DNA of 64,000 bases from a virus (taxonomy: Duplodnaviria; Caudoviricetes). Position 1 is the first letter of the stretch. Each line of letters opens with the position of its first letter. Positions 26,756 through 39,406 of the stretch are shown here, one piece after another. A program made the translations under genes and the position numbers. The stretch lies in the IMG/VR virus record IMGVR_UViG_3300031998_000008, positions 143,930 to 207,929 of that record; one strand, given 5' to 3'. The notes beneath the pieces are model-generated. The model did no database searches and was not told the DNA's origin. It saw only the letters and a list, made by a program, of their open reading frames with translations.

Positions 26756-26764
26756 CAAGAATAT

Positions 26765-26887: not shown

Positions 26888-27023
26888 TGAAGCGTGGTGA
26901 AATGGTAGACACGGCGGTAGTAAACAAAACGCTTACAGTGTATGTAAGTTAACAGCAGTTGGTATTACGTTTCAGGTAGAACCGCTGCCAGTGGCGTTGG
27001 AGGTTCGAATCCTTCCGCTTCAA
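26888..27023 (+). tRNA. tRNA-Leu-type gene with ACAGCA-module insert in the anticodon arm (anticodon uncertain, CAG or TAG)
   Basis: Leu D arm GTGAAATGGTAGACAC, long variable arm, GCGGT/ACCGC stem around a ~60 nt insert with GCTTACA/TGTAAGT-TAACAGCAG. Confidence 0.7.
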
Positions 27024-27075
27024 CAAAAAAGTTTGGCACGATTTTTGATATAGTGCTTATGTTCTTTGAAATTAT

Positions 27076-27262: not shown

Positions 27263-27432
27263 GGTGCTCTGGCAGATATGGTATATGCACCGGACTGAAT
27301 ACAGAATAAACTGTAAATTAAACTTCGTGTTGGCGAAGAGGAAAACGCAAGACGCTAATCGTCTAACTCATCGGTTCAAATCCGATACACGGAGCAAATC
27401 CGGCTAAGGTGGTTCGAGTCCACTGGGCACCA
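27263..27432 (+). tRNA. tRNA-Phe(GAA) with 97-nt anticodon-loop insert containing a nested tRNA-like gene
   Basis: CCGGA-CTGAA[27300-27396]AA-TCCGG; acceptor GGTGCTC/GGGCACC-A. Confidence 0.75.
27324..27394 (+). ncRNA. Nested tRNA-like element (5-nt anticodon loop CTAAT)
   Basis: TTCGTGT/ACACGGA, GCG/CGC D stem, AGACG/CGTCT, ATCGG-TTCAAAT-CCGAT. Confidence 0.7.
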
Positions 27433-27483
27433 CAGAAAATTTGATAATAAAATAGAAATTAAAATAAAAAAATAGGTAATACG

Positions 27484-27519
27484 ATGACACGATTTAAGAA
27501 ACACATAAAACGACTGTAA
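27484..27519 (+). promoter_or_regulatory. Mini-ORF MTRFKKHIKRL followed by a 10-bp hairpin
   Basis: A-rich leader then ATG; hairpin AATGATGGTA/TACCATCATT at 27522-27554. Confidence 0.4.
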
Positions 27520-27566
27520 GTAATGATGGTACACCTTGTAGTTTTACCATCATTCGGGAAGACTAT

Positions 27567-27639
27567 GGGGATGTAGCAGACACGGTTGTTGCGTGTGACT
27601 GAAAATCACAAGAAGTTGGGTCAGCACCAACCATCCCCA
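27567..27639 (+). tRNA. tRNA-Phe(GAA), atypical T loop
   Basis: TGTGA-CTGAAAA-TCACA; T loop GTCAGCA. Confidence 0.75.
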
Positions 27640-27645
27640 CAATAG

Positions 27646-27719
27646 GGGCTCATAGCATAATTGGTAGTTGCACCTGACTTTTAATCAGGGGGTTCTGGGT
27701 TCGAGTCCCAGTGGGCCCA
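27646..27719 (+). tRNA. tRNA-Lys(TTT)
   Basis: CCTGA-CTTTTAA-TCAGG. Confidence 0.92.
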
Positions 27720-27728
27720 CAAGCAAAT

Positions 27729-27804
27729 GCGCTTGTAACTCAGTGGTTTTCAGAGTACTTGACTTTTAATCAAGGAGTCGTGGGTTCGAGTCCCACCAGG
27801 CGCA
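27729..27804 (+). tRNA. tRNA-Lys(TTT)
   Basis: CTTGA-CTTTTAA-TCAAG. Confidence 0.92.
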
Positions 27805-27810
27805 CTAAAT

Positions 27811-27882
27811 GCCCCAATGGTGTAATGGATAGCACTAAAGTCCACGGAACTTTCAGTGAGGGTTCGAATCCTTCTTGGGGTA
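27811..27882 (+). tRNA. tRNA-Arg(ACG), C33
   Basis: AAAGT-CCACGGA-ACTTT. Confidence 0.85.
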
Positions 27883-27894
27883 CTTTTGACAAAC

Positions 27895-27965
27895 GTCCCT
27901 GTAGGTCAACGGTAGACTAGGTGACTCTTAATCATCGGATTTGGGTTCGAATCCCAGCGGGGGCA
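27895..27965 (+). tRNA. tRNA-Lys(CTT)
   Basis: GGTGA-CTCTTAA-TCATC. Confidence 0.9.
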
Positions 27966-28015
27966 CAAAACTTGGCACGGTTTTTGATAATGTGCAAACG
28001 TTCTTTGAAAAACAT

Positions 28016-28087
28016 GGCTCCATAGTTCAAGGGATAGAACGAGTGCCTTCTAAGCACCAAATCTAGGTTCGAGTCCTAGTGGGGCTA
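28016..28087 (+). tRNA. tRNA-Arg(TCT)
   Basis: AGTGC-CTTCTAA-GCACC. Confidence 0.9.
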
Positions 28088-28095
28088 CAAAACAT

Positions 28096-28167
28096 GCTCC
28101 TATAGTTCAAGGGAGAGAATAGAAGTTTCCTAAACTTTTGATTTAGGTTCGAGTCCTAATAGGAGTA
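28096..28167 (+). tRNA. tRNA-Arg(CCT)
   Basis: GAAGT-TTCCTAA-ACTTT. Confidence 0.9.
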
Positions 28168-28188
28168 CAAACTTAAATTAAATAGAAT

Positions 28189-28359
28189 ATGGGACTTACA
28201 TATGGCGAAGAGCCTGAACCTTGGATGAATAGCGATGCCCATAACAGGCATTGTTCACGTAAAAAAATTAAACGTGAGAGACATAAAAAACTCAGAAGAA
28301 TACCTCTTGACAAAGATGTCAGGTCAATGTTAAAAAGGTACTCAGGCTGGGAATGGTAA
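28189..28359 (+). CDS. Small basic hypothetical protein (56 aa)
   Basis: MGLTYGEEPEPW...RYSGWEW read by eye. Confidence 0.5.
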   Translation: MGLTYGEEPEPWMNSDAHNRHCSRKKIKRERHKKLRRIPLDKDVRSMLKRYSGWEW

Positions 28360-28363
28360 ATAT

Positions 28364-28435
28364 GCGGCGTTAGTACAACGGTTAGTATATCAGCTTGCCA
28401 TGCTGAAGATGTCGGTTCGATTCCGATACGCCGCT
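28364..28435 (+). tRNA. tRNA-Gly(GCC)
   Basis: TCAGC-TTGCCAT-GCTGA. Confidence 0.92.
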
Positions 28436-28557
28436 CTAAGGTAACTTTAGATTACCTGAAGGTGATATGTGGCATCCTCAAGTACAAGGGACACACCATA
28501 CTTTAGATGGTTATCGCTTTCCCTAGGGCGATTTTAAAATAGCACAGTAGGGGTGTA

Positions 28558-28628
28558 GGCGATGTAGTCTAACGGTAGAACGGGGCTCTCATAAGGCCCA
28601 TACGGAAGTTCAACTCTTCCCATCGCCA
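28558..28628 (+). tRNA. tRNA-Met/Ile2(CAT)
   Basis: GGGCT-CTCATAA-GGCCC. Confidence 0.85.
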
Positions 28629-28951
28629 CAAAAAAAAATAAAAAAAAAAGATTTGCTTTTTACAAATTCAATTTGTATATTTGCAATATCAAAAGTTCTT
28701 TGAAAGAATATATCAAGCCGCCCAGTCGGTAGTCGCAGATTACGGTTTGCGATAAAAGTGGTACTTGGAAGCTAATCCGCTCAGTCGGTAAAAGGTAAGG
28801 TGAGAGAGGTCATCTTTAAAACGTCAATTCGTAAGCCTGAAAAGTGATACTTAGCGTTTTCTCAAAAGGACAGAGTTCTTTGACATATTGTGAAATCTGA
28901 ATAAATACAACTTCTAAAGGTTGTCTGTAGTGATACACGCAACCTTCTTAC

Positions 28952-29038
28952 GGAGGCGTGGCTGAGTGGTTTAAGGCGGCGGTCTTGAAAACCGTTGGCC
29001 TCGTAAGGGGCCCGCAGGTTCGAATCCTGCCGCCTCCG
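28952..29038 (+). tRNA. tRNA-Ser(TGA)
   Basis: GCGGT-CTTGAAA-ACCGT, long variable arm. Confidence 0.93.
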
Positions 29039-29105
29039 CAAAAAAAATCTATAACGAGAATACGACATCCTGTAGTAGAGCACTTAGTATTTAAGTTATA
29101 GTAAT

Positions 29106-29233
29106 GCTGGAATCGTCTAATGGATTAGGACACGTAGCAAACAAAATGATTTCAGTCGGAAATGAAATTTAACAGCAGAATTTAGCAATGAAATTCCAAT
29201 TCCGAAATGGGGGTTCGAATCCCTCTTCCAGCT
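29106..29233 (+). tRNA. tRNA-Gly(TCC) with 55-nt ACAGCA-module insert (29135-29189)
   Basis: Removing the insert gives CGGAA-ATTCCAA-TTCCG; acceptor GCTGGAA/TTCCAGC-T. Confidence 0.8.
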
Positions 29234-29235
29234 CT

Positions 29236-29361
29236 TGCAAGTTGGTGTAGTGGCAGCACACGTAGCGACTAATTAGATTTCAGACATGGAATTAGACAGC
29301 AATATTTAAAATGCGATGAAACCATAATTCCGTGACAGAGGTTCGATTCCTCTACTTGCAA
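29236..29361 (+). tRNA. tRNA-Met/Ile2(CAT) with 55-nt ACAGCA-module insert (29263-29317)
   Basis: Removing the insert gives CGGAA-ACCATAA-TTCCG. Confidence 0.78.
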
Positions 29362-29373
29362 CTATTTAAGATT

Positions 29374-29495
29374 TGGGATGTGGTGTAACGGTAGCACACG
29401 TAGCACTTTATGATTTCAGACACGGAATTTTACAGCAATTATTTTAGCGATGAATTTGGGTTTCCGTGGTTTTGGTTCGACTCCAGACGTCCCGA
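29374..29495 (+). tRNA. tRNA-Pro(TGG) with 51-nt ACAGCA-module insert (29401-29451)
   Basis: Removing the insert gives CGGAA-TTTGGGT-TTCCG. Confidence 0.8.
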
Positions 29496-29517
29496 CATGT
29501 TTTTCAGGTTAAGGTAA

Positions 29518-30029
29518 TGAAATCCCAAGTGGGGCCCAATATATAACAGTCCTTGCTATATGGCGTGAGGATAAAGTTGGGAAAATATAGGTAAAAAATG
29601 CATTCTTACGCCCTAATGGTTGATATATTGTGGTATCAATGGTGTGTTTTTATGTGTGTGACTACGCAAATCACACAGATTTCAATCTAATGAAATACCA
29701 AGTGGGTCCTGATATAGCATATTCACAAAAAATGGTTTGTGAAGAAGTCAGGAAAATAGTGGTGAAGATGATTATTCAGTTAATCCTTAACGTTGGCATA
29801 TCGTGGAGCCAACTGTTCGTCTTTGTGTGCGTGACTACGCAAGTCGCACATATTTCGTCATAATGAAACCCCAAGTGGGACCCAATATACAATAGCCTTT
29901 GCTATATGGCGTAAAGGTAAAGTTGGGGTAATATAGGTAAAAATGCTTGGTTGCGCCCTAATGGTTGATATATCGTGGTATCAACAGTGTGTTTTTATGT
30001 GTGTGACTCCGCAAATCACACAGGTTTCA
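29518..30029 (+). ncRNA. Three tandem copies of a ~167-nt structured RNA (29518-29684, 29691-29857, 29864-30029)
   Basis: 173-nt period; closing stems TGAAATC/GATTTCA, TGAAATA/TATTTCG, TGAAACC/GGTTTCA; conserved CCAAGTGGG and GTGACT(A/C)CGCAA. Confidence 0.8.
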
Positions 30030-30116
30030 TTTTTTTTTGGTACACGTTAAAATGTTTTTTTTTATTCGCCTTTACTAATTTTTAAATTTCATTATATTTA
30101 TATAAAAATATTTATA

Positions 30117-30686
30117 ATGAAAAAGAATTTTAGAACAAAAGAAGAATATATTGAGGCTGCAAAGATGGCTCATAGTGTTGCTGAAATGTGCAGATTACTT
30201 GGTAGAAATCCATGTGGCGCTGGATATTATATTATGAAAAAGAAAATCAAAGAATATGATATAGATATAAGTCATTTTCTTGGGCAAGGATGGAATAAGG
30301 GTTTAAAGATGAACCCTAATGAGGGAAAAATTAAAAAATTAGAAGAAATATTAGTAGAAAATTCCACATATGCTAATTGTAATTGTTTAAAAAAAAGGTT
30401 ATTAAAAGAAGGTGTTAAAGAATATAGGTGTGAGTGTTGTGGGTTGACTGAGTGGAACGGTAAAGAAATTCCTTTAGAAATACATCACATAAATGGTGTT
30501 AGAAATGATAACAGGATTGAAAATCTTCAATTATTATGCCCAAATTGCCATGCTCAAACAGATAATTATTGTTCTAAAAATATGAAGAATGGCGGAGTGG
30601 TGGAATTGGTAGACACGACTGTCCCAAAAGCAGTTGCCGAGAGGCGTGTGGGTCCGACTCCCACCTCCGCTACAGAACTTAAATAA
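30117..30686 (+). CDS. HNH homing endonuclease
   Basis: CECCG..EWNG..LEIHHING..NDNRIENLQLLCPNCH. Confidence 0.9.
   Translation: MKKNFRTKEEYIEAAKMAHSVAEMCRLLGRNPCGAGYYIMKKKIKEYDIDISHFLGQGWNKGLKMNPNEGKIKKLEEILVENSTYANCNCLKKRLLKEGVKEYRCECCGLTEWNGKEIPLEIHHINGVRNDNRIENLQLLCPNCHAQTDNYCSKNMKNGGVVELVDTTVPKAVAERRVGPTPTSATELK
30591..30672 (+). tRNA. tRNA-Leu(CAA), C33, T loop TCCGA; lies inside the HNH ORF 3' end
   Basis: ACTGT-CCCAAAA-GCAGT; Leu D and variable arms. Confidence 0.85.
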
Positions 30687-30704
30687 TAATTAAAAATTAA
30701 CAAA

Positions 30705-31340
30705 ATGAAGAAAGTATTTATTTTATTGATGGCAATTTCTTTGATGTTTTCATTCAATTCTTGCGATTGGTTTAACAAGAACAAGGATAATGAGAAAAAA
30801 GAAATTATCGTGGAAAACGTAGTTAAAGCAGACAGAGACTACATGACAGAAAATTATGGTAATACCTACGTATGGTATGAAACACAAATTTCTTTGAATG
30901 ACTATCTTGATGAAGAATGCGATGGCTCATTCTCAGAGATTGTAGATGTGTTCCAAGTTATCACTACAACTGACAGTGTAACATTTGATACCAAAGTAAT
31001 TAAGATGTACCATGTTGCTGATTCTTCATACATTGAAGAAATTGAAGGTTTCTGGGTTGAAGACATGAATATGAACGATGAAATCATTTCAGTCACTTAC
31101 AAACAAGCATTCCAACTTATTAATGAAGTAAACTTCCCAAAACCACATTCAAAGAATTGTGTTTTGAGAAAAGAAGTTGGCCCAATTGAAGCTAATCCTC
31201 AGTATATCTTTGGCAACATTGAATCACAATTGTATGTTGATGCATTGACAGGTGATGTAACTGATGAAAGCCCAAGTTTCTGTGACGAAGTTATTGAAAA
31301 CGACAGCATCGAAGATGTAAACACTCAATTTGGTGAGTAG
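30705..31340 (+). CDS. Putative lipoprotein
   Basis: MKK + hydrophobic stretch + FNSC lipobox; acidic mature part. Confidence 0.75.
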   Translation: MKKVFILLMAISLMFSFNSCDWFNKNKDNEKKEIIVENVVKADRDYMTENYGNTYVWYETQISLNDYLDEECDGSFSEIVDVFQVITTTDSVTFDTKVIKMYHVADSSYIEEIEGFWVEDMNMNDEIISVTYKQAFQLINEVNFPKPHSKNCVLRKEVGPIEANPQYIFGNIESQLYVDALTGDVTDESPSFCDEVIENDSIEDVNTQFGE

Positions 31341-31372
31341 CCGTAATTAAATAAAAAAAGATATAAAAATTA

Positions 31373-31439
31373 GAAAACCTAACAGCAACTTTTAGTAATA
31401 ATCAGGACTTTCATTCCCGACAATAAACTAATGGTTTTC
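31373..31439 (+). ncRNA. ACAGCA-stem RNA displaying a Glu(TTC) anticodon arm
   Basis: GAAAACC-TAACAGCAA ... CAGGA-CTTTCAT-TCCCG ... GGTTTTC. Confidence 0.7.
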
Positions 31440-31458
31440 GTTTTTTAGAACCCATATA

Positions 31459-31529
31459 AGTAATCCTACAGCAACATTTCAACAAAACCTTTGATTGCAA
31501 TTCAAAACCATGTTAACAAACGGATTACT
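31459..31529 (+). ncRNA. ACAGCA-stem RNA displaying a Cys(GCA) anticodon arm
   Basis: AGTAATCC-TACAGCAA ... TTTGA-TTGCAAT-TCAAA ... GGATTACT. Confidence 0.75.
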
Positions 31530-31535
31530 GTAAAT

Positions 31536-31607
31536 GCCTCCTTAGTATAACGGTTATTATATCGGCTTTGTAACCCGAAGATGGCAGTCCGATTCTGCCA
31601 GGGGGCT
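31536..31607 (+). tRNA. tRNA-Thr(TGT), T loop TCCGA
   Basis: TCGGC-TTTGTAA-CCCGA. Confidence 0.82.
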
Positions 31608-31729
31608 CAAAACATTCGAGGGATTGAGGCTTGGTTTCCTATTCTGACCTTTTGACGAATTGTGTTGGAATACGAATAAGGAGCAAGAGGCTTGCATGCA
31701 CCTGGCTTGCTGTGTAGAGTGTTTTTAAT

Positions 31730-31813
31730 GGGAGCGTAACCGGTAATTGGTAGCCGCACGGACTGTAAATCCGTTCCCTTTTGGGACTGGTGGTTCGAGT
31801 CCACCCGCTCCCA
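31730..31813 (+). tRNA. tRNA-Tyr(GTA)
   Basis: ACGGA-CTGTAAA-TCCGT. Confidence 0.92.
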
Positions 31814-31905
31814 CAACAAGCACAAGTCTTTAGGCCCCCACACACATGGCAGCATAAGACTATATAAGTGGGAATACAAGCAAGAATTCTAAAGTGTTTG
31901 TTAAT

Positions 31906-31976
31906 GCGTTGTTAGTACAACGGCAGTATATTGGCTTCCCAAGCCGAAGATGTCAGTTCGATTCTGATACAGCGCT
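31906..31976 (+). tRNA. tRNA-Gly(CCC)
   Basis: TTGGC-TTCCCAA-GCCGA. Confidence 0.9.
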
Positions 31977-31984
31977 CATGTTTT

Positions 31985-32066
31985 CGGCTTGTGGTGGAAC
32001 TGGTAGACACGCATGTCTTAGGAACATGTGCCGAAAGGCGTGTGGGTTCGACTCCCACCTTGCCGA
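31985..32066 (+). tRNA. tRNA-Leu(TAG)
   Basis: CATGT-CTTAGGA-ACATG; two T-T mismatches in acceptor. Confidence 0.85.
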
Positions 32067-32192
32067 CTGAAAATATATCAACGAAGCTTTGACTAATGAA
32101 GCCATGGATTTTACTGTGAGAAGTCCTATTGTGGACCGTTGATTTTTTAGATTATACTTTTTAGTTGATTATACTTTTTAGTTGAAAATATA

Positions 32193-32283
32193 AGGAAACT
32201 TGCAGCAAATTTAATTAGGTTCAATAAATTTAACTTCCAATTAGATTTTAGATGGTTCGAGTCCATTACAAACAAGGTTTCCT
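32193..32283 (+). ncRNA. GCAGCA-stem RNA with Gly(TCC) anticodon arm and T arm
   Basis: AGGAAACTT-GCAGCAA ... TTTAA-CTTCCAA-TTAGA ... GATGG-TTCGAGT-CCATT ... AGGTTTCCT. Confidence 0.75.
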
Positions 32284-32289
32284 GAGTTT

Positions 32290-32363
32290 GGGAGAGTAGC
32301 GTAGCTGGTTAGCGCAACGGACTGTTAATCCGTGGGTCGTGGGTTCGATTCCCACCTCTCCCG
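32290..32363 (+). tRNA. tRNA-Asn(GTT)
   Basis: ACGGA-CTGTTAA-TCCGT. Confidence 0.92.
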
Positions 32364-32368
32364 CACAA

Positions 32369-32511
32369 AGTAAGCTTGCAGCAATAATTCAGTTTATTTT
32401 CGCAGATACCGAAGAGATGTCGGTTCGATTCCGGCCCCCCATACAAATTTAACTTTCTTATCATATGGGGGTAGTTTAATGGTAGAATATTACAAACAAC
32501 AAAGGCTTACT
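32369..32511 (+). ncRNA. Circularly permuted tRNA mimic (GAT loop) on a GCAGCA stem
   Basis: Order: stem, anticodon arm, T arm, CCCCCAT, linker, ATGGGGG, D arm, stem (AGTAAGCT/GGCTTACT). Confidence 0.8.
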
Positions 32512-32527
32512 GTCAATACAAAGCAAA

Positions 32528-32620
32528 AGAAATCTTACAGCAAATATCAACTTGATTAGTTCGATTCTAATATTAGCCGCCATAAACAGGCTGATTGCAA
32601 AGGTGCAGTTAATGATTTCT
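32528..32620 (+). ncRNA. Permuted tRNA mimic (T arm, closed acceptor, D-like arm; no anticodon) on an ACAGCA stem
   Basis: AGAAATC/GATTTCT; ATTAG-TTCGATT-CTAAT; ATTAGCC-GCCA..GGCTGAT; TGCA/TGCA. Confidence 0.75.
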
Positions 32621-32635
32621 GAATGCTTTTTTTAT

Positions 32636-32709
32636 AGGGGTATGGTTGAATTGGTTACAAGTACCGGCCTGTCACGCCGGTGGTGCGGGTTCGAGTCCCG
32701 TTATCCCTG
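32636..32709 (+). tRNA. tRNA-Asp(GTC)
   Basis: CCGGC-CTGTCAC-GCCGG. Confidence 0.92.
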
Positions 32710-32719
32710 CAATAGATAA

Positions 32720-32849
32720 AGGAATTCAACAGCAACTTTTAATTTCGTTTGACTGTAAATCAAAAGGTTATTGGTTCGAATCCAGTTGTTGCATTAGAGA
32801 AATCGAAGGCGACATAGCTCAATTGGTAGAGTAAGAAAAAGTGATTCCT
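32720..32849 (+). ncRNA. Circularly permuted tRNA-Tyr(GTA) mimic on an ACAGCA stem
   Basis: AGGAATT/GATTCCT; TTTGA-CTGTAAA-TCAAA; T arm; TGTTGC..GCGACA; TAGCTCAATTGGTAGAGT. Confidence 0.82.
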
Positions 32850-32866
32850 GTGCATCTATTTTTTAT

Positions 32867-32940
32867 GGGCCTGTGGTTGAATGGTTTACAATGCCGCCCT
32901 GTCACGGCGTGTGGTGCGGGTTCGAATCCCGTCAGGCCCG
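32867..32940 (+). tRNA. tRNA-Asp(GTC)
   Basis: CGCC-CTGTCAC-GGCG. Confidence 0.9.
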
Positions 32941-32951
32941 CATAGATTGAA

Positions 32952-33106
32952 AGAAATTTAACAGCAAGAGACTTTATGGTAAACACATTTCTCTGCAAAA
33001 GAAAGATTGTTGGTTCGAGTCCAACTGTAGCATTGAAGACGGAGCCCTCATTTAGCGAGGTGCGAGTTTTTGGCTGCATAGTGAAATTGGAAAAAGAATG
33101 ATTTCT
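32952..33106 (+). ncRNA. Circularly permuted tRNA-Cys(GCA) mimic on an ACAGCA stem (break in the D loop)
   Basis: AGAAATT/GATTTCT; TGGTAAACAC; TTTCT-CTGCAAA-AGAAA; T arm; TGTAGC..GCTGCA-TAGTG. Confidence 0.8.
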
Positions 33107-33234
33107 GTAAATCTATAACATAGGAAACAAAGGACACACGTACCTTAAACAAGTACGAAAAGTTAGTGCAAGCCGAATAAAGTCGCCAAGCGTCTCAGGT
33201 CGGTAGCATGATAGTGAAATGTAAATTTCTTAAT

Positions 33235-33307
33235 GGGGAGTTCATTTAGCGGTTTAGGATGCAGGTTCGACAGACCTGTCACTATGGTTCGATTCCATAA
33301 CACCCCA
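33235..33307 (+). tRNA. tRNA-Val(GAC), C33
   Basis: CAGGT-TCGACAG-ACCTG. Confidence 0.7.
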
Positions 33308-33310
33308 CAA

Positions 33311-33661
33311 TCGGATGTTGTTGATATTCAAAGAAAAGTCCGTAAGACGAGGGTTCGACTCCCTCCGGGTCCACCATATTGGGTGCGCCATGTTGAGTAC
33401 CAACCATACTAGTTATACGGTTCTTATGATTCATGGTACAATACCAAGTAATTTGAAAAACTTGGTTCGGGTTTAAAATTGGGGTTCAACTCCCTGGCAT
33501 CCAACAACTTTCAAACATGGGCCCGCTTGGATTTGATTGCGAATGAATACAATGGAAGGAGATATTCGAGAAGCCAATAAATGGCAATGAAAATTATGCA
33601 TATGCAGTTGCAGCCTAAGCTAGGTTAGCAAATGCAGGTTGGCAGCGAACCAAATCGCTGC
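33311..33661 (+). ncRNA. ssrA: Two-piece (circularly permuted) tmRNA
   Basis: Acceptor piece ends T arm-CGGGTCC-ACCA at 33376; coding piece starts GGGCCCG..GGATTTGA at 33519 (G3:U70); tag GNENYAYAVAA-stop at 33583-33618. Confidence 0.88.
33380..33504 (+). ncRNA. tRNA-like element in the tmRNA intervening segment
   Basis: TGGGTGC/GCATCCA-A, TGGGG-TTCAACT-CCCTG, ACCAAGT/ACTTGGT hairpin. Confidence 0.55.
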
Positions 33662-33665
33662 AAAT

Positions 33666-33738
33666 GGCGGGTTCGTATAATAGGTTAGTACGCCACCCTC
33701 TCAAGGTGGAAATAGAGGTTCGAACCCACTACTCGCTA
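33666..33738 (+). tRNA. tRNA-Glu(CTC)
   Basis: CCACC-CTCTCAA-GGTGG. Confidence 0.82.
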
Positions 33739-33748
33739 CAAAATACAT

Positions 33749-33820
33749 CGTGCCATCGAATAATGGTTAGTTCGCTGCCCTTTCACGGCAGTAATACGGG
33801 TTCGAGTCCCGTTGGCACGA
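33749..33820 (+). tRNA. tRNA-Glu(TTC)
   Basis: CTGCC-CTTTCAC-GGCAG. Confidence 0.92.
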
Positions 33821-33894
33821 CTCTCGCCGAGTTAGTTTCTAATCCGGAGCGCTTAACGTACACACGTTAGTAAGTAGGAAACAAGGCGAGTTTT

Positions 33895-33969
33895 CGGCTA
33901 GTGGTGTAATTGGTTAGCACGTCACCCTGATAAGGTGAAAGTTTGGTGGTTCGAGTCCACCCTAGCCGA
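33895..33969 (+). tRNA. tRNA-Ile(GAT)
   Basis: TCACC-CTGATAA-GGTGA. Confidence 0.92.
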
Positions 33970-34167
33970 CAAAATATGCAAAAATTTGTGAAATAATTTA
34001 TTTTTTTGTATATTTATAAAACAAGAAAGTAGTATTCCTGTCAAGGGCGAAACAATTGATGGGTTAGAGCCATACCGTTAGAAACACGGTCATAATGTTA
34101 GGGTACAAGTCGGGTAAAACTGACACCAGTCGGAATGACAAGTTAAATTATGGTTCACTTTCTAAAT

Positions 34168-34242
34168 GGGGCGTTAGCTCAGTCTGGCTAGAGCGGTAGC
34201 TTTGCAAGCTTCAGGTCGTGGGTTCGAATCCCACACGCTCCA
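34168..34242 (+). tRNA. tRNA-Ala(TGC)
   Basis: GGGGCGT/ACGCTCC (G3:U70), loop TTTGCAA. Confidence 0.9.
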
Positions 34243-34608
34243 CAAAACATATTCAGGTATAGAAGACGCAAATTCTAAGAGACTGCTCTGTGTTTTGGAC
34301 GATATATGTGTACCAAACCAATGTTCAAGTTGCGTATTGAACTGAGGGCATGTATAATCGAAAAAAAGTGTCTATGGTGTAAGTGGTGAGCACACCCAAT
34401 GGAGGGAGGTACGGTTCGAGTCCGTGGATTACTTCAATTTTTTTCTTATTATTTAAAAGGATGAAGTTGGTAGCGCCACAACGTAATGTAACAAGTCCCT
34501 GAAATGGTCATTTCAAACTGTGTTCCTTATCGTAGTTAAGGGAAAGTCTTTTACGGTTTCTATAATGCGAAAGCCAAAATGTATCAAAGGAAGCAAACCG
34601 TTTTATTT

Positions 34609-34735
34609 GGAGGTATAGTTTAGTGGTAGAATGACGTAAAATGAAAATAGCATTTTGGTCATTTAAAAATGTTAACAGCATATGAGTTCAATGCCTTTCC
34701 CGCCGTTGATGTAGGTTCGATTCCTGCTGCCTCCG
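34609..34735 (+). tRNA. tRNA (TTC, Glu) with 56-nt ACAGCA-module insert (34637-34692)
   Basis: Removing the insert gives ACGGC-CTTTCCC-GCCGT. Confidence 0.75.
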
Positions 34736-34889
34736 CTATGAGATACCAATAGGTTTACTTAATCATATGTCAGAAGTACAATGACGTTAGAGTATGGGAT
34801 TGCCGGAAGCTAACGGTGTGATACATAACTTCGCACAATTGGTAACAATTCATGTTAGTTGCAAATGACATGATGCTCATTTTTTTTAT

Positions 34890-35021
34890 TGGCCAGTAGC
34901 TCAGTTGGCAGAGCAACGGAATGAAAAGAAAACGCATTTTGGCCTAAAGATGTTAACAGCAATGAAAAATTTTCGACTGTTAATCCGTGGGCCGCAGGTT
35001 CGAGTCCTGCCTGACCAGCCA
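34890..35021 (+). tRNA. tRNA-Asn(GTT) with 56-nt ACAGCA-module insert (34920-34975)
   Basis: Removing the insert gives ACGGA-CTGTTAA-TCCGT; encoded GCCA end. Confidence 0.82.
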
Positions 35022-35131
35022 ATATGTCTTGTGTTGGTGCGTAACCATCGGGCACTAAATGTTGAAACAAACAGGATTAAGTTCCTCGAAAGCCATTAAT
35101 CAGTTCAACTCTGATGGGACATATTTTTTAT

Positions 35132-35207
35132 GCATGTATGAAGCAGATTGGATGTGCTACCAGCGTGATAAGGCTGGGCTATGTTGGTTCGAATCCAACT
35201 GCATGCG
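35132..35207 (+). tRNA. Atypical tRNA-Ile(GAT)-like, 8-nt anticodon loop
   Basis: CCAGC-GTGATAAG-GCTGG; GCATGTA/TGCATGC. Confidence 0.55.
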
Positions 35208-35248
35208 CAAATTACCTGAACACATAGGGTGATTTATCTGTACAGATT

Positions 35249-35402
35249 GGGTGTGTAGACTGAATGGGAAAATTGGTATCAAAAGTACATTCGGATATGA
35301 CTGAAATGCAGATAGGTCATATTGACGGGATGCAACTTGAGAAGATTTGAAGATGCGCCCGGTAAGCTCCGGGAGATACGGGTTCGAATCCCGTCACACT
35401 TA
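35249..35402 (+). ncRNA. tRNA-like element with a large D-arm insertion
   Basis: GGGTGTG/CACACTT, CCCGG-TAAGCT-CCGGG, ACGGG-TTCGAAT-CCCGT. Confidence 0.5.
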
Positions 35403-35407
35403 CAATA

Positions 35408-35474
35408 GGAAAACATACAGCAACTTTAATTCAGTTACAATCTTTTAAATTGTGGGACTAAAATTTCGTTTTCC
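35408..35474 (+). ncRNA. ACAGCA-stem RNA displaying a Lys(TTT) anticodon arm
   Basis: GGAAAAC-ATACAGCAA ... ACAAT-CTTTTAA-ATTGT ... GTTTTCC. Confidence 0.78.
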
Positions 35475-35561
35475 GTTTAATATATGGTTGGCAAAGATGA
35501 GTTAGCTAGCAAACATTACCCCAAAAGTTATTCATACTTAGGTTATAACGCCAATCATTAT

Positions 35562-35643
35562 GGGGAAGTGGTGGAACTGGTAGACACGTATGCCCAAGGA
35601 GCATATGCCGAAAGGCGTGTGGGTTCGACTCCCACCTTCCCTA
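35562..35643 (+). tRNA. tRNA-Leu(AAG), C33
   Basis: TATGC-CCAAGGA-GCATA; Leu D and variable arms. Confidence 0.85.
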
Positions 35644-35793
35644 CTTAATATGCCCTGTAGTCAAAGTTGTAGAACAACTATTACGTATGTCGTTGTTTCT
35701 GTAATTTCTGGTGATTTATTTGACCGTACTTTGTTAATACATGTTAATACGAAGTATGAAGGTTCGATTCCTTTACTGAGGCGCAAGGAGAAA

Positions 35794-35864
35794 GCCTTGT
35801 TAGTTTAGTGGTAGAATGATACCCTCGTAAAGTATAGACGATGGTTCGATTCCATCACTTGGCT
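35794..35864 (+). tRNA. tRNA-Thr(CGT)
   Basis: ATACC-CTCGTAA-AGTAT. Confidence 0.72.
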
Positions 35865-35896
35865 CAATATTTATTAAAGAACAAAAAAGATTATTT

Positions 35897-36157
35897 ATGA
35901 AAAAGTTATTTTTAACAATTACTATTGTTTTTGCATTGCTTACAAGTTGCATTGCACAAAATGGAGGAGGATTATTCCAAAGGGGTGAAAATCCTGAAAG
36001 TGAAAAAACCCAAGTTATTTATAACAGAGAAGGGGGATTTCCTGGTCTTCCGCCACACGGAGAAGAAGGCGACCAACCTGCACCTGTAGGCGCAGGAACT
36101 GTTTTACTTATTGGCTTTGGTGCTGCTTATGCAATGTACAAGAAAAACAAAAAGTAA
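35897..36157 (+). CDS. Small secreted protein with PID-CTERM-like C-terminal sorting signal
   Basis: Signal peptide; PVGAGTVLLIGFGAAYAMYKKNKK. Confidence 0.7.
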   Translation: MKKLFLTITIVFALLTSCIAQNGGGLFQRGENPESEKTQVIYNREGGFPGLPPHGEEGDQPAPVGAGTVLLIGFGAAYAMYKKNKK

Positions 36158-36455
36158 AGAAAACTCAACGCTGATGAGTATAAATAAGACAGCCGTACAG
36201 CCATCGTGAACGGTAGCAGTACTGGACTAAACTGTTAAAATAAAGGCCCTAAGGGAGAGGTAACGTTACTCCTTAAAACTAGCGAATTTCAAGTAGATTC
36301 ATGGGTTATCGAAAGGCTTTAGAAATGTTAAGTAAAAAGACCTTATGCCAGCGATTGACACTCTACACGGGGAGTGTAGGCCACGAAAAATGTGGTGGTT
36401 GAAAAAGTACCAGGGTTCGACTCCTATATCAATCAAGGAAATCCATTTTTCAGAT

Positions 36456-36533
36456 GGTGTCTATAGTGTTAGTGGTCGAGCACGCAAGTTTGTGGCACTT
36501 GTAGCCTCAGTTCGAATCTGAGTAGACACCCCA
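36456..36533 (+). tRNA. tRNA-His(GTG) with G-1
   Basis: CAAGT-TTGTGGC-ACTTG; C73-CCA encoded. Confidence 0.92.
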
Positions 36534-36534
36534 A

Positions 36535-36838
36535 TAGCAAGTACGGACCACATAGTAGTGTTCAGGGTAAGCCGTAAAGGTATCAGCTGTAGGGTTACGG
36601 TGTAGTCAGGGACCCATGTCCCCCAGCCTGATGAAGGAGTGTTGGTAATTTGCGAATCTCGTAAATTAAAGGTGAACTGCAACCGATTCCGTGAGGGGCC
36701 ATAAGATGACAAGCAACAGGAGCGTAAAAGTAGAGAAAAATGTGCAATCTGCATCAAGGTCTAGGTTAGCCCTCTCCCCATTGCACACTTACCACATAGT
36801 GGTTGTTCTCGCCTTGTCTCGTGAATTTACCTTGCTAT
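36535..36838 (+). ncRNA. Unidentified ~300-nt structured RNA
   Basis: GC-rich spacer closed by ATAGCAAG/CTTGCTAT, with internal hairpins. Confidence 0.45.
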
Positions 36839-36843
36839 TTTAT

Positions 36844-36929
36844 GGAGATGTGGCCGAGTGGTTTAAGGCGGCTCTCTGCTAAGGAGTTGGGCCCATAAAG
36901 CCCCGCAGGTTCGAATCCTGCCATCTCCG
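36844..36929 (+). tRNA. tRNA-Ser(GCT)
   Basis: GCTCT-CTGCTAA-GGAGT, long variable arm. Confidence 0.92.
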
Positions 36930-37059
36930 CAGAACGTGGCCAAAGCACGTTTTTAACACAAAAATTAAAGTGTTGGAGTATAATAAAGTGAAAATGTGGT
37001 CTGCAAGCCCATCGGTAAGCCAACGTGCTTTGAAAGTTCTTTGCCTTTGCAGGGGCAAT

Positions 37060-37132
37060 TTGTTTATGGTGTAACAGGGAGCATGCCTGTCGTGAAGACA
37101 GGAGGAGTCGGGTTCGAGACCCACTGAGCAGC
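37060..37132 (+). ncRNA. Atypical tRNA-like element
   Basis: CCTGT-CGTGAAG-ACAGG, GGGTTCGAGACCC. Confidence 0.45.
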
Positions 37133-37312
37133 TAAATAATTGAGAGGGAGTTGTCTGTTGAGAATCAAGCTTACTCAGTGGAAACGGATAGCGGGAAAAT
37201 GGTTACTACCGAAACTTCATTACGGGGTGTGTGACAAAGGAGTATTAGGTGTATGAAGGAAACTAATACGTGTATCAATTATTTTTTATTTCAGATTTCA
37301 CGATGTCAAAAA

Positions 37313-37344
37313 TAAAGGTCGCTGAGTTTTCAACGACCTTTTTT
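37313..37344. terminator. Terminator closing the RNA array
   Basis: AAAGGTCG..CGACCTTTTTT. Confidence 0.7.
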
Positions 37345-37345
37345 G

Positions 37346-39406
37346 TTATTCTATTGTGTTAAGTATCCGAGCAAGTTCACATGAATACATTCCCGTTGCT
37401 TCAGGAAACATATATTCGCCAAATTCTTCACAAAGTTCTTCCTCGTTTATTTCTCCATCATTATAATCGTGTATAAATTCTTCTATTTCTCCATTATCTT
37501 CATCGAAATAGTCAATCAGATAATCAACTAATCCATGGGCTATCTCATGGCCTATAGAAATCCTCGCCTGAGCCTTTATATTGAAATCATCGGTATCTAT
37601 ACCATTTTTAACCATTAATGCGTGTATGAGCCCCAAATTGACCCCTATTGGGATAATTTTCTCACCTATTAAGTTTCTTGAACGCTCGTAAACGGCAAGC
37701 CAATTTTTATCACCAAAATTATAATTGTAATCAAGTTCAACCGAAATACCCAATCTTCTCAAAAATTCATTCTCCAAATCATTAACACACTCATAGGCAT
37801 GTTCCATGAATTTACGTTTCCAAATGTCAAATGAATTAACTGATTCGTTCAATTCTTCTTTACCTTCAAGTCTATCTGCCAAAGTTTGTATGCTGACACA
37901 ATTTTTGTCTTGAAGTGTAAAGTGGCTTCTTTCTATATAGAAATAAATCGGCACTCTTTGGGCAAATTCACTCTTTGATATTTTCAATAATGCCTTTTTG
38001 TCTGCATCAAATTGTTTGAAACCCATCATCAAAGAATCATAATCAGGATAGTATATATCAACACGGTTCAAATAAGCGCTGACGTGAGTAAGGTTATCTC
38101 TATATGGTAGTTGTAATCCTTCTTCTGCTTGGTTTTGGTATTCATGTCTTTGAAGTGAACCAAGATTAAGTTCTTTTGGTAGCCCCAACTTAACAGGTGC
38201 TAAACCCATTCTTCTTTGCTTTTCGTAATAATATTCTTTGTCTTGGTATCTTGACTTGCTTGATTCGTTACCAGGAATTTGTCTGTTGAATGCGGCATCG
38301 TATCTATCTCTCTTTGGAGAATAGTATTCCATTGGCTTAACATTCAATACATCGTGATTTGAATTGAGTTTATCTGTGTTAAATTCAAGCCTTACAAATG
38401 GATGCATTCTATAATATGATGCATTGGCAAATCCCTCAAAGTCACTTCTATGTCTTGTCAATGATATGTGTGAATTACCATCCCAATATTTAGTGTTATA
38501 AAATGCCGAATACAGTTCATCAGATTCAGCAATAAGACTAAATCTGTATAAGGTTGTGAAATGATACAAAGATTTCATGTTTGTGTGCTCGTTCAATGTA
38601 CACTCTTCCAAATCATTTATGTTTCCTAAAAATTTTTCAAACCTCTTTCCATGGATGTCTTTTATGCTTCCATAAGTGTTATTTAGGAATTCAAGCATAT
38701 CTTTTAGTTTTACACAATGCTTGTCCTGCAAAGCAAAATTCCTTGCATTGGTGTAAACAAATATAGGCACGTAATTTGCAAATACGCTATCACCTATTTC
38801 TTGATATTCGGATAATAAGTTATTCCATCCATCGTAATCTTTAAGTACTTCGTTAAATTCTTTAAACAAAATATCTATTCTGTCAATATACTTGTGTATA
38901 TTTTTTAACTTTGGCCTGTATTTATCATTCTTAATTTGCAACCCTTCTTCAGCCTGATTGTGAAACTCAATCCTGTCGCCATTTTCTTCCCTATAAAACG
39001 GGTTCTGATAATGGGCCTTTGACGTTGTGTAATGAGAAAACATATAAGCGCCATGTCTTTTTGGAGAATAAAACTCCATTGGCTTTATGTTCAAAACATC
39101 ATGCTTTGAATTTAATTTTTCTATGTTAAATTGTATCCTTACATTGTTGTTTCTTTCGTTGGCAAAAGCAAACCCCTCAAAATTGCTTTTATGCCTTGTC
39201 AATGATATGTGGCTATTGTTATCCCAATAATCCTTCAGGTAGTTTGCACCCAACAATTCATCAGTGTTAACAATTTCACGTAAACTGTATATTGACGTGA
39301 AATGATACAAAGATTTCATGTTAGTGTGCTCATCAATTATATTCTTAACACACTCGCTTACTATCTTTTCAATGTCTTCTATTGTGTATTCAATCAATTT
39401 TTCCAT
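37346..39406 (-). CDS. Two tandem ADP-ribosyltransferase-like domains + C-terminal HEXXH domain
   Basis: Duplicated NMKSLYHFT..HISLTRH..FN..KLNS.H..NQAEE; GHEIAH. Confidence 0.55.
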   Translation of the reverse strand: MEKLIEYTIEDIEKIVSECVKNIIDEHTNMKSLYHFTSIYSLREIVNTDELLGANYLKDYWDNNSHISLTRHKSNFEGFAFANERNNNVRIQFNIEKLNSKHDVLNIKPMEFYSPKRHGAYMFSHYTTSKAHYQNPFYREENGDRIEFHNQAEEGLQIKNDKYRPKLKNIHKYIDRIDILFKEFNEVLKDYDGWNNLLSEYQEIGDSVFANYVPIFVYTNARNFALQDKHCVKLKDMLEFLNNTYGSIKDIHGKRFEKFLGNINDLEECTLNEHTNMKSLYHFTTLYRFSLIAESDELYSAFYNTKYWDGNSHISLTRHRSDFEGFANASYYRMHPFVRLEFNTDKLNSNHDVLNVKPMEYYSPKRDRYDAAFNRQIPGNESSKSRYQDKEYYYEKQRRMGLAPVKLGLPKELNLGSLQRHEYQNQAEEGLQLPYRDNLTHVSAYLNRVDIYYPDYDSLMMGFKQFDADKKALLKISKSEFAQRVPIYFYIERSHFTLQDKNCVSIQTLADRLEGKEELNESVNSFDIWKRKFMEHAYECVNDLENEFLRRLGISVELDYNYNFGDKNWLAVYERSRNLIGEKIIPIGVNLGLIHALMVKNGIDTDDFNIKAQARISIGHEIAHGLVDYLIDYFDEDNGEIEEFIHDYNDGEINEEELCEEFGEYMFPEATGMYSCELARILNTIE

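What the first reader, a model, noticed from the sequence alone, without database searches (positions are those of the whole stretch)
31373..35474. Minimal anticodon-display RNAs (Glu, Cys, Gly, Lys)
Seen: 67-91 nt RNAs at 31373, 31459, 32193 and 35408 consist of the CAGCA stem, unstructured linkers and a canonical 5-bp stem with a 7-nt Y-T-NNN-A loop (TTC, GCA, TCC, TTT). They have no acceptor, so cannot be charged. Known: PrrC cleaves tRNA-Lys(UUU), and other toxins and defence nucleases cut specific anticodon loops. Inference: decoy or bait substrates for anticodon nucleases or modification enzymes.
Basis: partly seen in the sequence, partly recalled or inferred. Interest (0 to 1): 0.8.

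Follow-up and report, generated by a model that had tools for sequence, protein, structure and literature searches.

The report
Phage handle RNAs displaying tRNA anticodon arms
Four small RNA genes inside a rumen phage's tRNA cluster each join a conserved "handle" (short clamp helix plus ACAGCAA) to a look-alike of a tRNA anticodon arm. They belong to a widespread phage RNA family, not found in the papers I could search, that travels with a Ro60-shaped protein, so they are probably protein-bound baits and not tRNAs.

Summary
The four elements are real. Each is closed by a 7-bp Watson-Crick helix followed by (A/G)CAGCAA and carries an anticodon-like hairpin (TTC, GCA, TCC, TTT).

Three have orthologues in other rumen phage contigs. 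In these the clamp helix, a second short helix and the anticodon stem change by compensatory substitutions, and the loop frame (C/U)U-NNN-A stays. The triplet itself can switch: UUU/GUU in one element, UCC/UCA/GAA in another.

They are 4 of 14 handle copies in this tRNA array. The others sit inside complete tRNAs or around circularly permuted tRNAs.

The handle is widespread: 386 hits against 45 in a control over 116 viral loci. A "mini anticodon arm" subclass recurs in unrelated phages, mostly Lys-UUU and Asn-GUU.

In other phages the handle lies within 500 nt of a DUF2828/DUF7788 gene. That gene is present in 13 of 15 near-complete handle-bearing records, and its predicted fold matches Ro60. 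It is absent from the 208 kb held for this phage, a record rated 56% complete.

Best reading: Y-RNA-like partner RNAs whose anticodon arm acts as bait or tether for anticodon-recognising factors. The decoy function itself is untested.

Earlier follow-ups in this scan reported the same handle family on other genomes.

The parts
31373..31439 (+). e1: handle RNA with a Glu-like arm. P1 31373-31379/31433-31439. ACAGCAA 31382-31388. P2 TTAGT 31392-31396 / ACTAA 31427-31431. Arm 31402-31407/31415-31420 with an A.C mismatch. Loop CTTTCAT 31408-31414 (TTC).
   Evidence: Orthologue in metagenome locus L129 and a strain variant in RNA-library contigs: compensatory changes in P1 (C-G to T-A), P2 (two pairs) and the arm (G-C to A-T, G-C to C-G), with TTC kept. 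A covariance model built from foreign mini elements scores it 21.7 bits, E 0.043.
31459..31529 (+). e2: handle RNA with a Cys-like arm. P1 31459-31466/31522-31529. ACAGCAA 31468-31474. Arm TTTGA 31490-31494 / TCAAA 31502-31506. Loop TTGCAAT (GCA 31497-31499).
   Evidence: No orthologue in G001 or L129. Not found by the foreign covariance model at E <= 1. This is the weakest of the four.
32193..32283 (+). e3: handle RNA with a Gly-like arm plus a T-arm. P1 32193-32199/32277-32283. GCAGCAA 32202-32208. Arm 32229-32233/32241-32245. Loop CTTCCAA (TCC 32236-32238). T-arm 32252-32266.
   Evidence: Orthologues in G001 (loop CTGAAAA, stem with a compensatory change) and L129 (loop CTTCAAA, one stem mismatch). 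T-arm and handle are kept. Rfam tRNA 19.9 bits, below the cut-off of 29.
35408..35474 (+). e4: handle RNA with a Lys-like arm. P1 35408-35414/35468-35474. ACAGCAA 35417-35423. P2 AGT 35433-35435 / ACT 35457-35459. Arm ACAAT 35437-35441 / ATTGT 35449-35453. Loop CTTTTAA (TTT 35444-35446).
   Evidence: Orthologues L133/L134 keep the same arm while the linkers differ. G001/L128/L135/L138 have ACAAA-CTGTTAA-TTTGT, a compensatory stem change with a GTT triplet. Foreign covariance model 30.8 bits, E 8e-4.
29108..29497 (+). Three tandem complete tRNAs (Gly TCC, CAT, Pro TGG). Each has the handle as a 51-56-nt hairpin insert in the 5' strand of the anticodon stem (CAGCA at 29173, 29297, 29433).
Evidence: These genes are seen unspliced in RNA-library contigs.
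26888..27020 (+). Long-arm tRNA-like gene with a handle insert (CAGCA at 26953).
32368..32510 (+). Handle closing a circularly permuted tRNA-like RNA (Ile GAT): anticodon arm, T arm, acceptor hairpin, D arm.
32528..32620 (+). Handle RNA whose cargo is a T-arm-like hairpin plus two further hairpins.
   Evidence: 84% identical to the G001 copy. Also present in L129.
32719..32848 (+). Handle closing a circularly permuted tRNA-like RNA (Tyr GTA).
   Evidence: Weak Rfam YrlA match at 32766-32832, 23.1 bits against a cut-off of 69.
32951..33106 (+). Handle closing a permuted tRNA-like RNA (GCA arm, T arm).
   Evidence: Orthologues in G001 and L129 place the closing strand after ...GTGAAAT....
34609..34735 (+). 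Complete tRNA (Glu TTC) with a handle hairpin insert (CAGCA at 34676).
   Evidence: Unspliced in an RNA-library contig covering 34471-34728.
34890..35018 (+). Complete tRNA (Asn GTT) with a handle hairpin insert (CAGCA at 34957).

Best explanation
The four elements are small non-coding RNAs of a phage RNA family defined by a handle: a 7-bp helix formed by the RNA's two ends, followed by single-stranded ACAGCAA.

They are probably transcribed with the tRNA array and cut out of it (inferred). Each folds into the handle, a short second helix and an anticodon-arm mimic (shown by covariation).

By analogy with Y RNAs, the handle is the docking site of a ring-shaped Ro60-like protein of the DUF2828/DUF7788 family. 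This is inferred from tight gene linkage in other phages; the protein is not in the part of this genome that is held.

The exposed anticodon arm would then be the working end. It would act as bait or tether for a factor that recognises particular anticodon loops, such as a host anticodon nuclease or a tRNA-modifying enzyme. That factor would be sequestered or brought to the Ro-like protein (inferred, untested).
For: 1. Reality and structure:
- A 7-bp Watson-Crick clamp is present in 4 of 4 elements against 1.9% at random positions.
- Orthologues of e1, e3 and e4 show compensatory changes in the clamp, the second helix and the anticodon stem. The loop frame is kept while the linkers diverge (strain variant).

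2. Family:
- There are 14 copies in this array, all on the + strand.
- A scanner finds 386 handles against 45 in reversed-sequence controls over 116 viral loci.
- Short cargos carry a strict anticodon-like hairpin in 18 of 90 cases against 1.4 by shuffling.
- The loop is CU-NNN-AA in 16 of 20. A flanking helix of 3 bp or more is present in 16 of 20 against 6.7 expected.
- A covariance model built only from foreign minis finds e4 (E 8e-4) and its G001 orthologue (E 4e-6).

3. Partner:
- A DUF2828+DUF7788 gene occurs in 28 of 116 loci.
- A handle lies within 480 nt of 28 of 29 gene copies, on the same strand in 26.
- The gene is present in 24 of 30 large handle-bearing records and in 13 of 15 that are at least 90% complete. 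In cultured phages it is in 710 of 50,697 records.
- Handles sit next to the gene in Felix O1-type and Listeria phages.
- The AlphaFold model (pLDDT 81) has Ro60 structures as its ten best PDB matches. The vWA metal-site motif DxSxS is invariant.

4. Literature:
- Y RNAs tether Ro60 to other proteins, and YrlA mimics tRNA (PMC4201824).
- Bas63 gp130, which that preprint calls structurally similar to Ro60 and which I take to be of the DUF2828 family from its position in a Felix O1-type phage (not checked here), counters a defence system. Its authors suggested that nearby 'tRNAs' may be Y RNAs (PMC11482910).
Against: - No Ro60-like, TROVE, DUF2828 or DUF7788 gene is in the 208 kb held for this phage. 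hhalign of all 64 ORFs of 300 aa or more gives at most 2.6% probability. The record is only 56% complete, so this is a gap and not a refutation.
- Handle-protein binding is inferred from linkage only.
- The handle motif differs from the known Ro60 site GNCGAAN0-1G, which is absent from all four elements.
- e2 has no orthologue. One strain variant of e1 has lost a stem pair, and another has a 2-nt loop deletion.
- The triplet of e3 differs in all three relatives, so its identity may be unconstrained.
- In six sister copies, removing the handle insert restores a perfect anticodon arm. This fits an intron at least as well as a docking arm. The only full-length Gly-UCC tRNA here carries such an insert.
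Confidence: 0.55

Rival explanations
1. The handle is a new kind of tRNA intron or assembly signal. It is cut out and the ends are joined, giving mature tRNAs from interrupted genes and circular intermediates from permuted genes. The four minis would then be decayed or by-product copies, or would give tiny ligated anticodon hairpins.
For: - Removing the 51-56-nt inserts restores canonical anticodon arms in the interrupted genes.
- The same holds in other phages, for example L002, L013 and L018.
- The break point of permuted copies lies at the same place, tRNA positions 26-30.
- Gly-UCC exists here only as an interrupted gene.
- RtcB and another RNA ligase lie beside the Ro-like gene in a Listeria phage.
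Against: - The minis are under structural selection, shown by compensatory changes in three helices, yet no splicing could make a tRNA from them.
- No RtcB, Rnl1, Rnl2 or EndA is in the held 208 kb.
- No known ribozyme matches.
- Most interrupted and permuted copies duplicate intact tRNA genes.
- RNA-library contigs show only the unspliced forms. This is weak, because contigs may derive from DNA.
- The permuted layout is the same as in YrlA (PMC4201824).
Confidence: 0.2
2. They are free-standing decoys. The RNAs alone compete with tRNAs for anticodon nucleases or modification enzymes, and the handle only stabilises the ends.
For: - The anticodon-arm shape is conserved.
- Triplets are skewed to Lys-UUU and Asn-GUU in the mini class.
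- No partner gene is in the held part of this genome.
Against: - The invariant single-stranded ACAGCAA beside a freely covarying helix points to sequence-specific recognition, not mere end protection.
- Handles are strongly linked to the Ro60-like gene elsewhere.
Confidence: 0.1
3. They belong to a tRNA repair or quality-control platform. The Ro-like particle would use tRNA-part mimics to recognise or hold damaged tRNAs or tRNA halves for ligation or decay, as proposed for bacterial Rsr-YrlA-RtcB.
For: - RtcB, an RNA ligase and an HD phosphohydrolase neighbour the Ro-like gene in a Listeria phage.
- A review of jumbo phages describes TROVE proteins with a tRNA-like partner as an RNA-repair platform (PMC7824862).
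Against: - It is not evident how an isolated anticodon arm would help to repair a cleaved tRNA.
- No repair enzymes are found in the held part of this genome.
Confidence: 0.12
4. They are chance hairpins or dead remnants without function.
For: - Folding energies are not better than shuffles.
- e2 lacks orthologues.
- Some short-cargo handles elsewhere carry no anticodon-like hairpin.
Against: - Clamp helices are present in 4 of 4 against 1.9% expected.
- Compensatory changes occur in orthologues.
- Anticodon-like hairpins are enriched about 12-fold in unrelated phages.
Confidence: 0.03

Closest known systems
Bacterial and phage Y RNAs of the YrlA type bound by Ro60/Rsr (Rfam RF02553; Chen et al. 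2014, PMC4201824)
   Same: - A terminal stem formed by the 5' and 3' ends, with a short conserved motif next to the 5' strand.
- A cargo that mimics tRNA, in the permuted order T arm, closed acceptor hairpin, D arm.
- Genes lie on the same strand next to a ring-shaped HEAT-repeat plus vWA protein.
   Different: - The motif is ACAGCAA, not GNCGAAN0-1G.
- The protein is DUF2828/DUF7788. It matches Ro60 only by fold, at 11-13% identity.
- There are up to 14 copies per genome, scattered in tRNA arrays.
- The minis carry only an anticodon arm, the one tRNA part that YrlA lacks.
- Rfam YrlA is not matched: 23 bits against a cut-off of 69, and only on a permuted sister copy.
Thermus phage phiLo Ro60 with Yrl1/Yrl2 (PMC12135203)
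   Same: A phage-encoded Ro60-fold protein with phage-encoded partner RNAs next to its gene. A role against host defence was proposed there too.
   Different: phiLo's protein is a recognisable TROVE protein and its RNAs carry the CGAA motif. No anticodon-arm cargo was described there.
Bas63 gp130 (Felix O1-type phage), described as structurally similar to Ro60 and found to counter the ppl defence (PhageMaP preprint, PMC11482910)
   Same: It sits directly upstream of the tRNA stretch of a Felix O1-type phage, as does the DUF2828/DUF7788 gene gp42 of Salmonella phage FO1a. I therefore take it to be the same family, but I did not compare gp130 itself. The authors guessed that some neighbouring 'tRNAs' are Y RNAs. 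I find four ACAGCAA handles just downstream of FO1a gp42.
   Different: The RNAs, their handle and their cargo classes were not defined there. This rumen phage record lacks the gene in the held part.
Permuted and intron-containing tRNA genes processed at bulge-helix-bulge sites (Cyanidioschyzon merolae, archaea; general knowledge)
   Same: The order of the tRNA halves is permuted, and short inserts lie in or near the anticodon stem.
   Different: I recognised no bulge-helix-bulge motif. No splicing endonuclease was found. The conserved hairpin plus ACAGCAA is unlike those introns. The minis cannot yield a tRNA.
Phage tRNAs that replace or resist host anticodon-nuclease targets (e.g. T5 tRNA-Lys against PARIS, T4 repair of PrrC-cut tRNA-Lys; general knowledge)
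   Same: Both concern the same battleground, anticodon loops of Lys and related tRNAs. They are a possible functional analogue for a decoy reading.
   Different: Those are complete, chargeable tRNAs or repair enzymes. Here only the anticodon arm is displayed, on a protein-docking handle.

Membership tests
ACAGCAA-handle phage RNAs (Y-RNA-like; not found in the papers searched) | A terminal helix of 6-8 bp made by the two ends, or a hairpin when inserted in a tRNA | tested here: met
   A 7-8-bp Watson-Crick helix in all four. Compensatory change in the e1 variant.
ACAGCAA-handle phage RNAs (Y-RNA-like; not found in the papers searched) | A spacer of 0-3 nt, then (A/G)CAGCA(A), directly 3' of the 5' strand | tested here: met
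   TA-ACAGCAA, T-ACAGCAA, TT-GCAGCAA and AT-ACAGCAA.
ACAGCAA-handle phage RNAs (Y-RNA-like; not found in the papers searched) | tRNA-derived cargo, located in a tRNA array on the tRNA strand | tested here: met
   Anticodon-arm mimics (plus a T-arm in e3), lying between + strand tRNA genes.
ACAGCAA-handle phage RNAs (Y-RNA-like; not found in the papers searched) | The genome encodes the DUF2828/DUF7788 Ro60-fold protein | tested here: inconclusive
   Not found in the 208 kb held, but the record is 56% complete. The gene is present in 13 of 15 near-complete handle-bearing records.
YrlA / Y RNA (Rfam RF02553) | GNCGAAN0-1G (Ro60 site) near the 5' end | tested here: not met
   No match, and not even CGAA, in any of the four.
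YrlA / Y RNA (Rfam RF02553) | A tRNA-like domain with T and D arms, scoring above the Rfam cut-off | tested here: not met
   No YrlA match on the four elements at E <= 5. Only e3 has a T arm.
YrlA / Y RNA (Rfam RF02553) | A neighbouring TROVE-domain Ro60 gene | tested here: not met
   PF05731 has no match in the genome at E <= 1.
tRNA (RF00005) | A cloverleaf with an acceptor stem with free ends, a D arm and a T arm | tested here: not met
   ARAGORN finds none at these sites. Rfam gives only 19.9 bits on e3 against a cut-off of 29.
Archaeal/eukaryal-type tRNA introns and permuted tRNA genes | A bulge-helix-bulge motif at the junctions and a splicing endonuclease (EndA) with a ligase | tested here: inconclusive
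   EndA, RtcB, Rnl1 and Rnl2 are not found in the held part. I looked for a bulge-helix-bulge motif only by eye and did not recognise one. No junction reads were listed (contigs only).
Small self-cleaving ribozymes (Rfam families) | A match to a curated ribozyme model | tested here: not met
   No ribozyme family matches at E <= 5 over 22800-37600.

The most novel reading that the evidence does not exclude
The particle is a programmable anti-defence decoy. A Ro60-like ring would hold a set of interchangeable anticodon-arm 'cassettes' that trap or mis-direct host anticodon nucleases. The triplet would be swapped between phage lineages to follow the specificity of the local defence systems. Swaps seen here are UUU/GUU in e4 and UCC/UCA/GAA in e3.
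Probability: 0.25. Interest if true: 0.9.

Novelty: new variant of a known kind. Interest (0 to 1): 0.78.

Why it matters
Phage tRNA clusters are usually read as codon-usage helpers or as spare parts against tRNA-cutting defences. This finding shows that part of such clusters is not tRNA at all. It is a modular RNA family that offers tRNA pieces, here bare anticodon arms, on a common docking handle linked to a Ro60-like protein.

That gives a concrete RNA partner set for a widespread phage protein. The protein is in about 1.4% of cultured phages, including Felix O1-type and Listeria phages, and a preprint reports that a likely member, Bas63 gp130, counters a bacterial defence.

It also gives a directly testable idea for how phages might neutralise anticodon-directed nucleases. 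In addition, it extends the Ro/Y-RNA principle to a second protein family and a second recognition motif.

Tried and rejected
- Known RNA families: Rfam at gathering and at E <= 5 gave only tRNAs, a permuted tmRNA and noise. There was no ribozyme and no Y RNA on the four elements.
- Single-sequence folding: energies were no better than shuffles. I dropped this as evidence.
- Cultured-phage DNA search with the region: only ordinary tRNA matches.
- Relatives through the flanking 686-aa protein: none. An exact 27-mer of a sister element found only G001.
- Enzymes in this genome: RtcB, TROVE, DUF7788, DUF2828, the Ro-like profile, Rnl2, Rnl1 and EndA were all negative. hhalign of 64 ORFs against the Ro-like alignment was negative. 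The Rnl1 search rang nowhere, not even in the controls, so it shows nothing.
- RNA-library runs: only assembled contigs were available, so expression, ends and strand cannot be read. Interrupted tRNAs appear unspliced and no intron-sized joint was listed, but DNA carry-over cannot be excluded.
- Searching the 302-kb metagenome contig behind L133 for the Ro-like gene: the record is not held.
- The MAFFT alignment of foreign minis (A1) aligns the arm but not the clamp or the second helix in register. I therefore parsed segments by script instead of using formal pair counts.
- My first scanner, with unlimited G-U pairs, was too permissive: 18% of random positions passed. I replaced it by a Watson-Crick-only test.
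- Sequence search of the Ro-like profile against PDB chains: only a marginal Ro60 match, E 0.4. The likeness is at the level of fold.
- Literature: I found no paper that describes the ACAGCAA handle or anticodon-arm RNAs in phages.

Full report
**Setting**

The window is the last 64 kb of a 207,929-bp viral record rated 56% complete. DNA runs from cattle and goat gut hold it. From about 23 to 37 kb it carries 34 tRNA genes on the + strand, a suppressor-type tRNA and a permuted tmRNA. The four elements lie between these genes.

**Observation**

Each element has (A/G)CAGCAA preceded, after 1-2 nt, by a 7-nt strand. The perfect Watson-Crick complement of that strand closes the element 67-91 nt downstream. 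Such a helix is found at 1.9% of random positions of the array region, yet all four have it. ACAGCAA is enriched in the window, 26 against 10.4 expected.

Each element also holds a hairpin with a 7-nt loop:
- CTTTCAT in e1.
- TTGCAAT in e2.
- CTTCCAA in e3.
- CTTTTAA in e4.

The e1 stem has an A.C mismatch. Folding energies alone are unremarkable. None of the four is called as a tRNA.

**Sister copies**

CAGCA with an adjacent helix occurs 14 times in the array, always on the + strand.
- In six copies the helix is a hairpin inside an otherwise complete tRNA, inserted in the 5' strand of the anticodon stem. Removing the insert restores the arm.
- In the others the helix is formed by the ends and encloses either a circularly permuted tRNA-like body, in the order anticodon arm, T arm, closed acceptor hairpin, D arm, or a smaller cargo.
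- The four elements are the small-cargo end of this series.

**Orthologues**

A related viral record, G001, and several rumen metagenome contigs carry the same array. Segment-by-segment comparison gives the following.
- e4: L133 and L134 keep the arm ACAAT-CTTTTAA-ATTGT and the flanking AGT/ACT helix while the linkers differ. The G001 type has ACAAA-CTGTTAA-TTTGT, a compensatory stem change with triplet GTT in place of TTT.
- e3: the handle and T-arm are kept. The stem changes TTTAA/TTAGA to TTTTA/TAAAA in G001. The loop stays CT-NNN-AA while the triplet reads TCC, TCA or GAA.
- e1: L129 has a G-C to A-T change in the arm and keeps TTC. A strain variant seen in RNA-library contigs has compensatory changes in the clamp (C-G to T-A), in the second helix (TTAGT/ACTAA to TTAAC/GTTAA) and in the arm (G-C to C-G), but loses one arm pair. 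Another variant has a 2-nt loop deletion.
- e2: no orthologue was found.

The structure is therefore selected in three of the four. The triplet is conserved in e1 and variable in e3 and e4.

**Spread**

A pattern joining AACAGCAA to a T-loop hit more than 116 viral contigs. Many show the same interrupted or permuted tRNA designs.

A scanner for 'helix, short spacer, RCAGCA' found 386 elements in these loci against 45 in reversed-sequence controls.

Among permuted-type elements with short cargo, a strict 5-bp stem with a 7-nt YU-NNN-RN loop is present in 18 of 90 against 1.4 expected from shuffles. Of 20 distinct minis:
- 16 have the loop frame CU-NNN-AA.
- 16 have a flanking helix of 3 bp or more, against 6.7 expected.
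- The triplets are UUU (6), GUU (5), UUG (2) and GCA (2), plus five others once each.

Some of these phages are related to each other, so the counts are not independent.

A covariance model built from 16 foreign minis finds e4 at 30.8 bits, its G001 orthologue at 42.8, e1 at 21.7 and e3 at 19.3. It does not find e2.

**Partner**

Earlier notes of this scan pointed to a Ro60-like protein, and I tested this myself.
- Clustering all ORFs of the 116 loci gave one dominant family, present in 28 loci. It carries DUF2828 and DUF7788, the latter vWA-like, with an invariant DxSxS metal-site motif.
- A handle lies within 480 nt of 28 of 29 gene copies, on the same strand in 26.
- The domain is present in 24 of 30 large handle-bearing records and in 13 of 15 that are at least 90% complete. 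The two complete records without it had no convincing handle in my scan.
- In cultured phages it occurs in 710 of 50,697 records, some annotated 'Ro-like RNA binding protein'.
- In Salmonella phage FO1a, four handles follow gp42. In Listeria phage LMTA-148, three handles precede the gene, and RtcB and an RNA ligase lie nearby.
- The AlphaFold model (pLDDT 81, pTM 0.81) has Ro60 from frog, human, Deinococcus and Thermus phage phiLo as its ten best PDB matches, aligned over the full length with TM about 0.5.
- Sequence alone barely sees the likeness.

**What is missing here**

No such gene, no TROVE protein and no RNA ligase or splicing endonuclease is in the 208 kb held for this phage. G001, rated 29% complete, also lacks the gene. 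The partner is therefore inferred for this lineage and not shown.

**Comparison with the known**

The design follows the Y-RNA principle of Ro60 partners: a terminal stem with an adjacent conserved motif, a tRNA-mimicking cargo, and a gene next to a Ro60-fold protein. YrlA even has the same permuted tRNA-like layout (PMC4201824).

These RNAs are not members of that family, for four reasons:
- The Ro60 site GNCGAAN0-1G is absent.
- Rfam YrlA is not matched.
- The protein belongs to another sequence family.
- The mini cargo is the anticodon arm, which YrlA lacks.

The PhageMaP preprint reports that Bas63 gp130, a protein structurally similar to Ro60 that lies upstream of that phage's tRNAs, counters the ppl defence. 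It guesses that nearby 'tRNAs' are Y RNAs (PMC11482910). From its position in a Felix O1-type phage I take gp130 to be of the same family, but I did not compare its sequence. I found no paper that describes the handle or the anticodon-arm RNAs.

**Mechanism and rivals**

I think a handle-docked particle that presents an anticodon arm as bait or tether is the most likely reading. The main rival is that the handle is an excised intron or assembly signal. The exact restoration of anticodon arms in the interrupted genes supports that rival, and the only full-length Gly-UCC tRNA here is of that type.

The rival does not explain why minis that can never yield a tRNA are kept in shape. RNA-library contigs show only unspliced forms, which is weak evidence. 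The two ideas could also be combined, with a Ro-like particle that works together with a ligase.

**Verdict**

The decoy idea is compatible with the evidence but untested. The better-grounded statement is that these are Y-RNA-like handle RNAs with anticodon-arm cargo, a new variant of a known kind of particle.

Noticed in passing
window 25856, 27034, 27973, 53483, 54618, 54875, 60216, 61597, 62330, 63344 (+ strand): The motif TGGCACG-N4-TTGAT occurs 10 times on the + strand against 0.08 expected. It resembles sigma-54 type -24/-12 promoters (TGGCAC-N5-TTGC). Three copies precede tRNA clusters. It may be this phage's promoter type.
   Followed up: partly
window 33314-33618: A two-piece (permuted) tmRNA with tag GNENYAYAVAA lies inside the phage tRNA array (Rfam tmRNA_permuted, 63.4 bits).
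   Followed up: no
window 29518-30029: Three tandem structured units of about 173 nt of unknown kind. Relatives in RNA-library and other contigs lack one unit (joint 29495 to 29687).
   Followed up: no
window 23147-23218: A tRNA with anticodon CTA, which reads TAG, suggesting stop-codon suppression or recoding in this phage.
   Followed up: no
window 25020-25140, 26280-26400, 26590-26675, 26765-26870: Several RNAs with a good T arm and a 7-bp acceptor-like stem but oversized or odd middles. They have no ACAGCA handle and are not called as tRNAs.
   Followed up: no
window 30117-30686: An HNH endonuclease gene sits inside the tRNA array. The neighbouring 211-aa ORF (30705-31340) is absent at this place in the relative G001.
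   Followed up: partly
L127 (Listeria phage LMTA-148) 5650-12554; L126 (Salmonella phage FO1a) 7750-8600: In cultured phages the ACAGCAA handles sit directly beside the DUF2828 'RNA-binding protein' gene. In the Listeria phage an HD phosphohydrolase, a split RtcB and another RNA ligase follow within 5 kb.
   Followed up: partly
L129 5982 and L137 982: The same handle sequence as e4 (GGAAAAC-AT-ACAGCAA) carries quite different cargos in two other metagenome contigs. This suggests that cargo is exchanged behind a fixed handle.
   Followed up: no
viral loci L006, L015, L046, L062, L087, L088, L107 and L127: Many short-cargo handles have no anticodon-like hairpin but share other short motifs, such as ...TTGGATA... 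or ...GGTGAAAA.... These may be further cargo classes.
   Followed up: no
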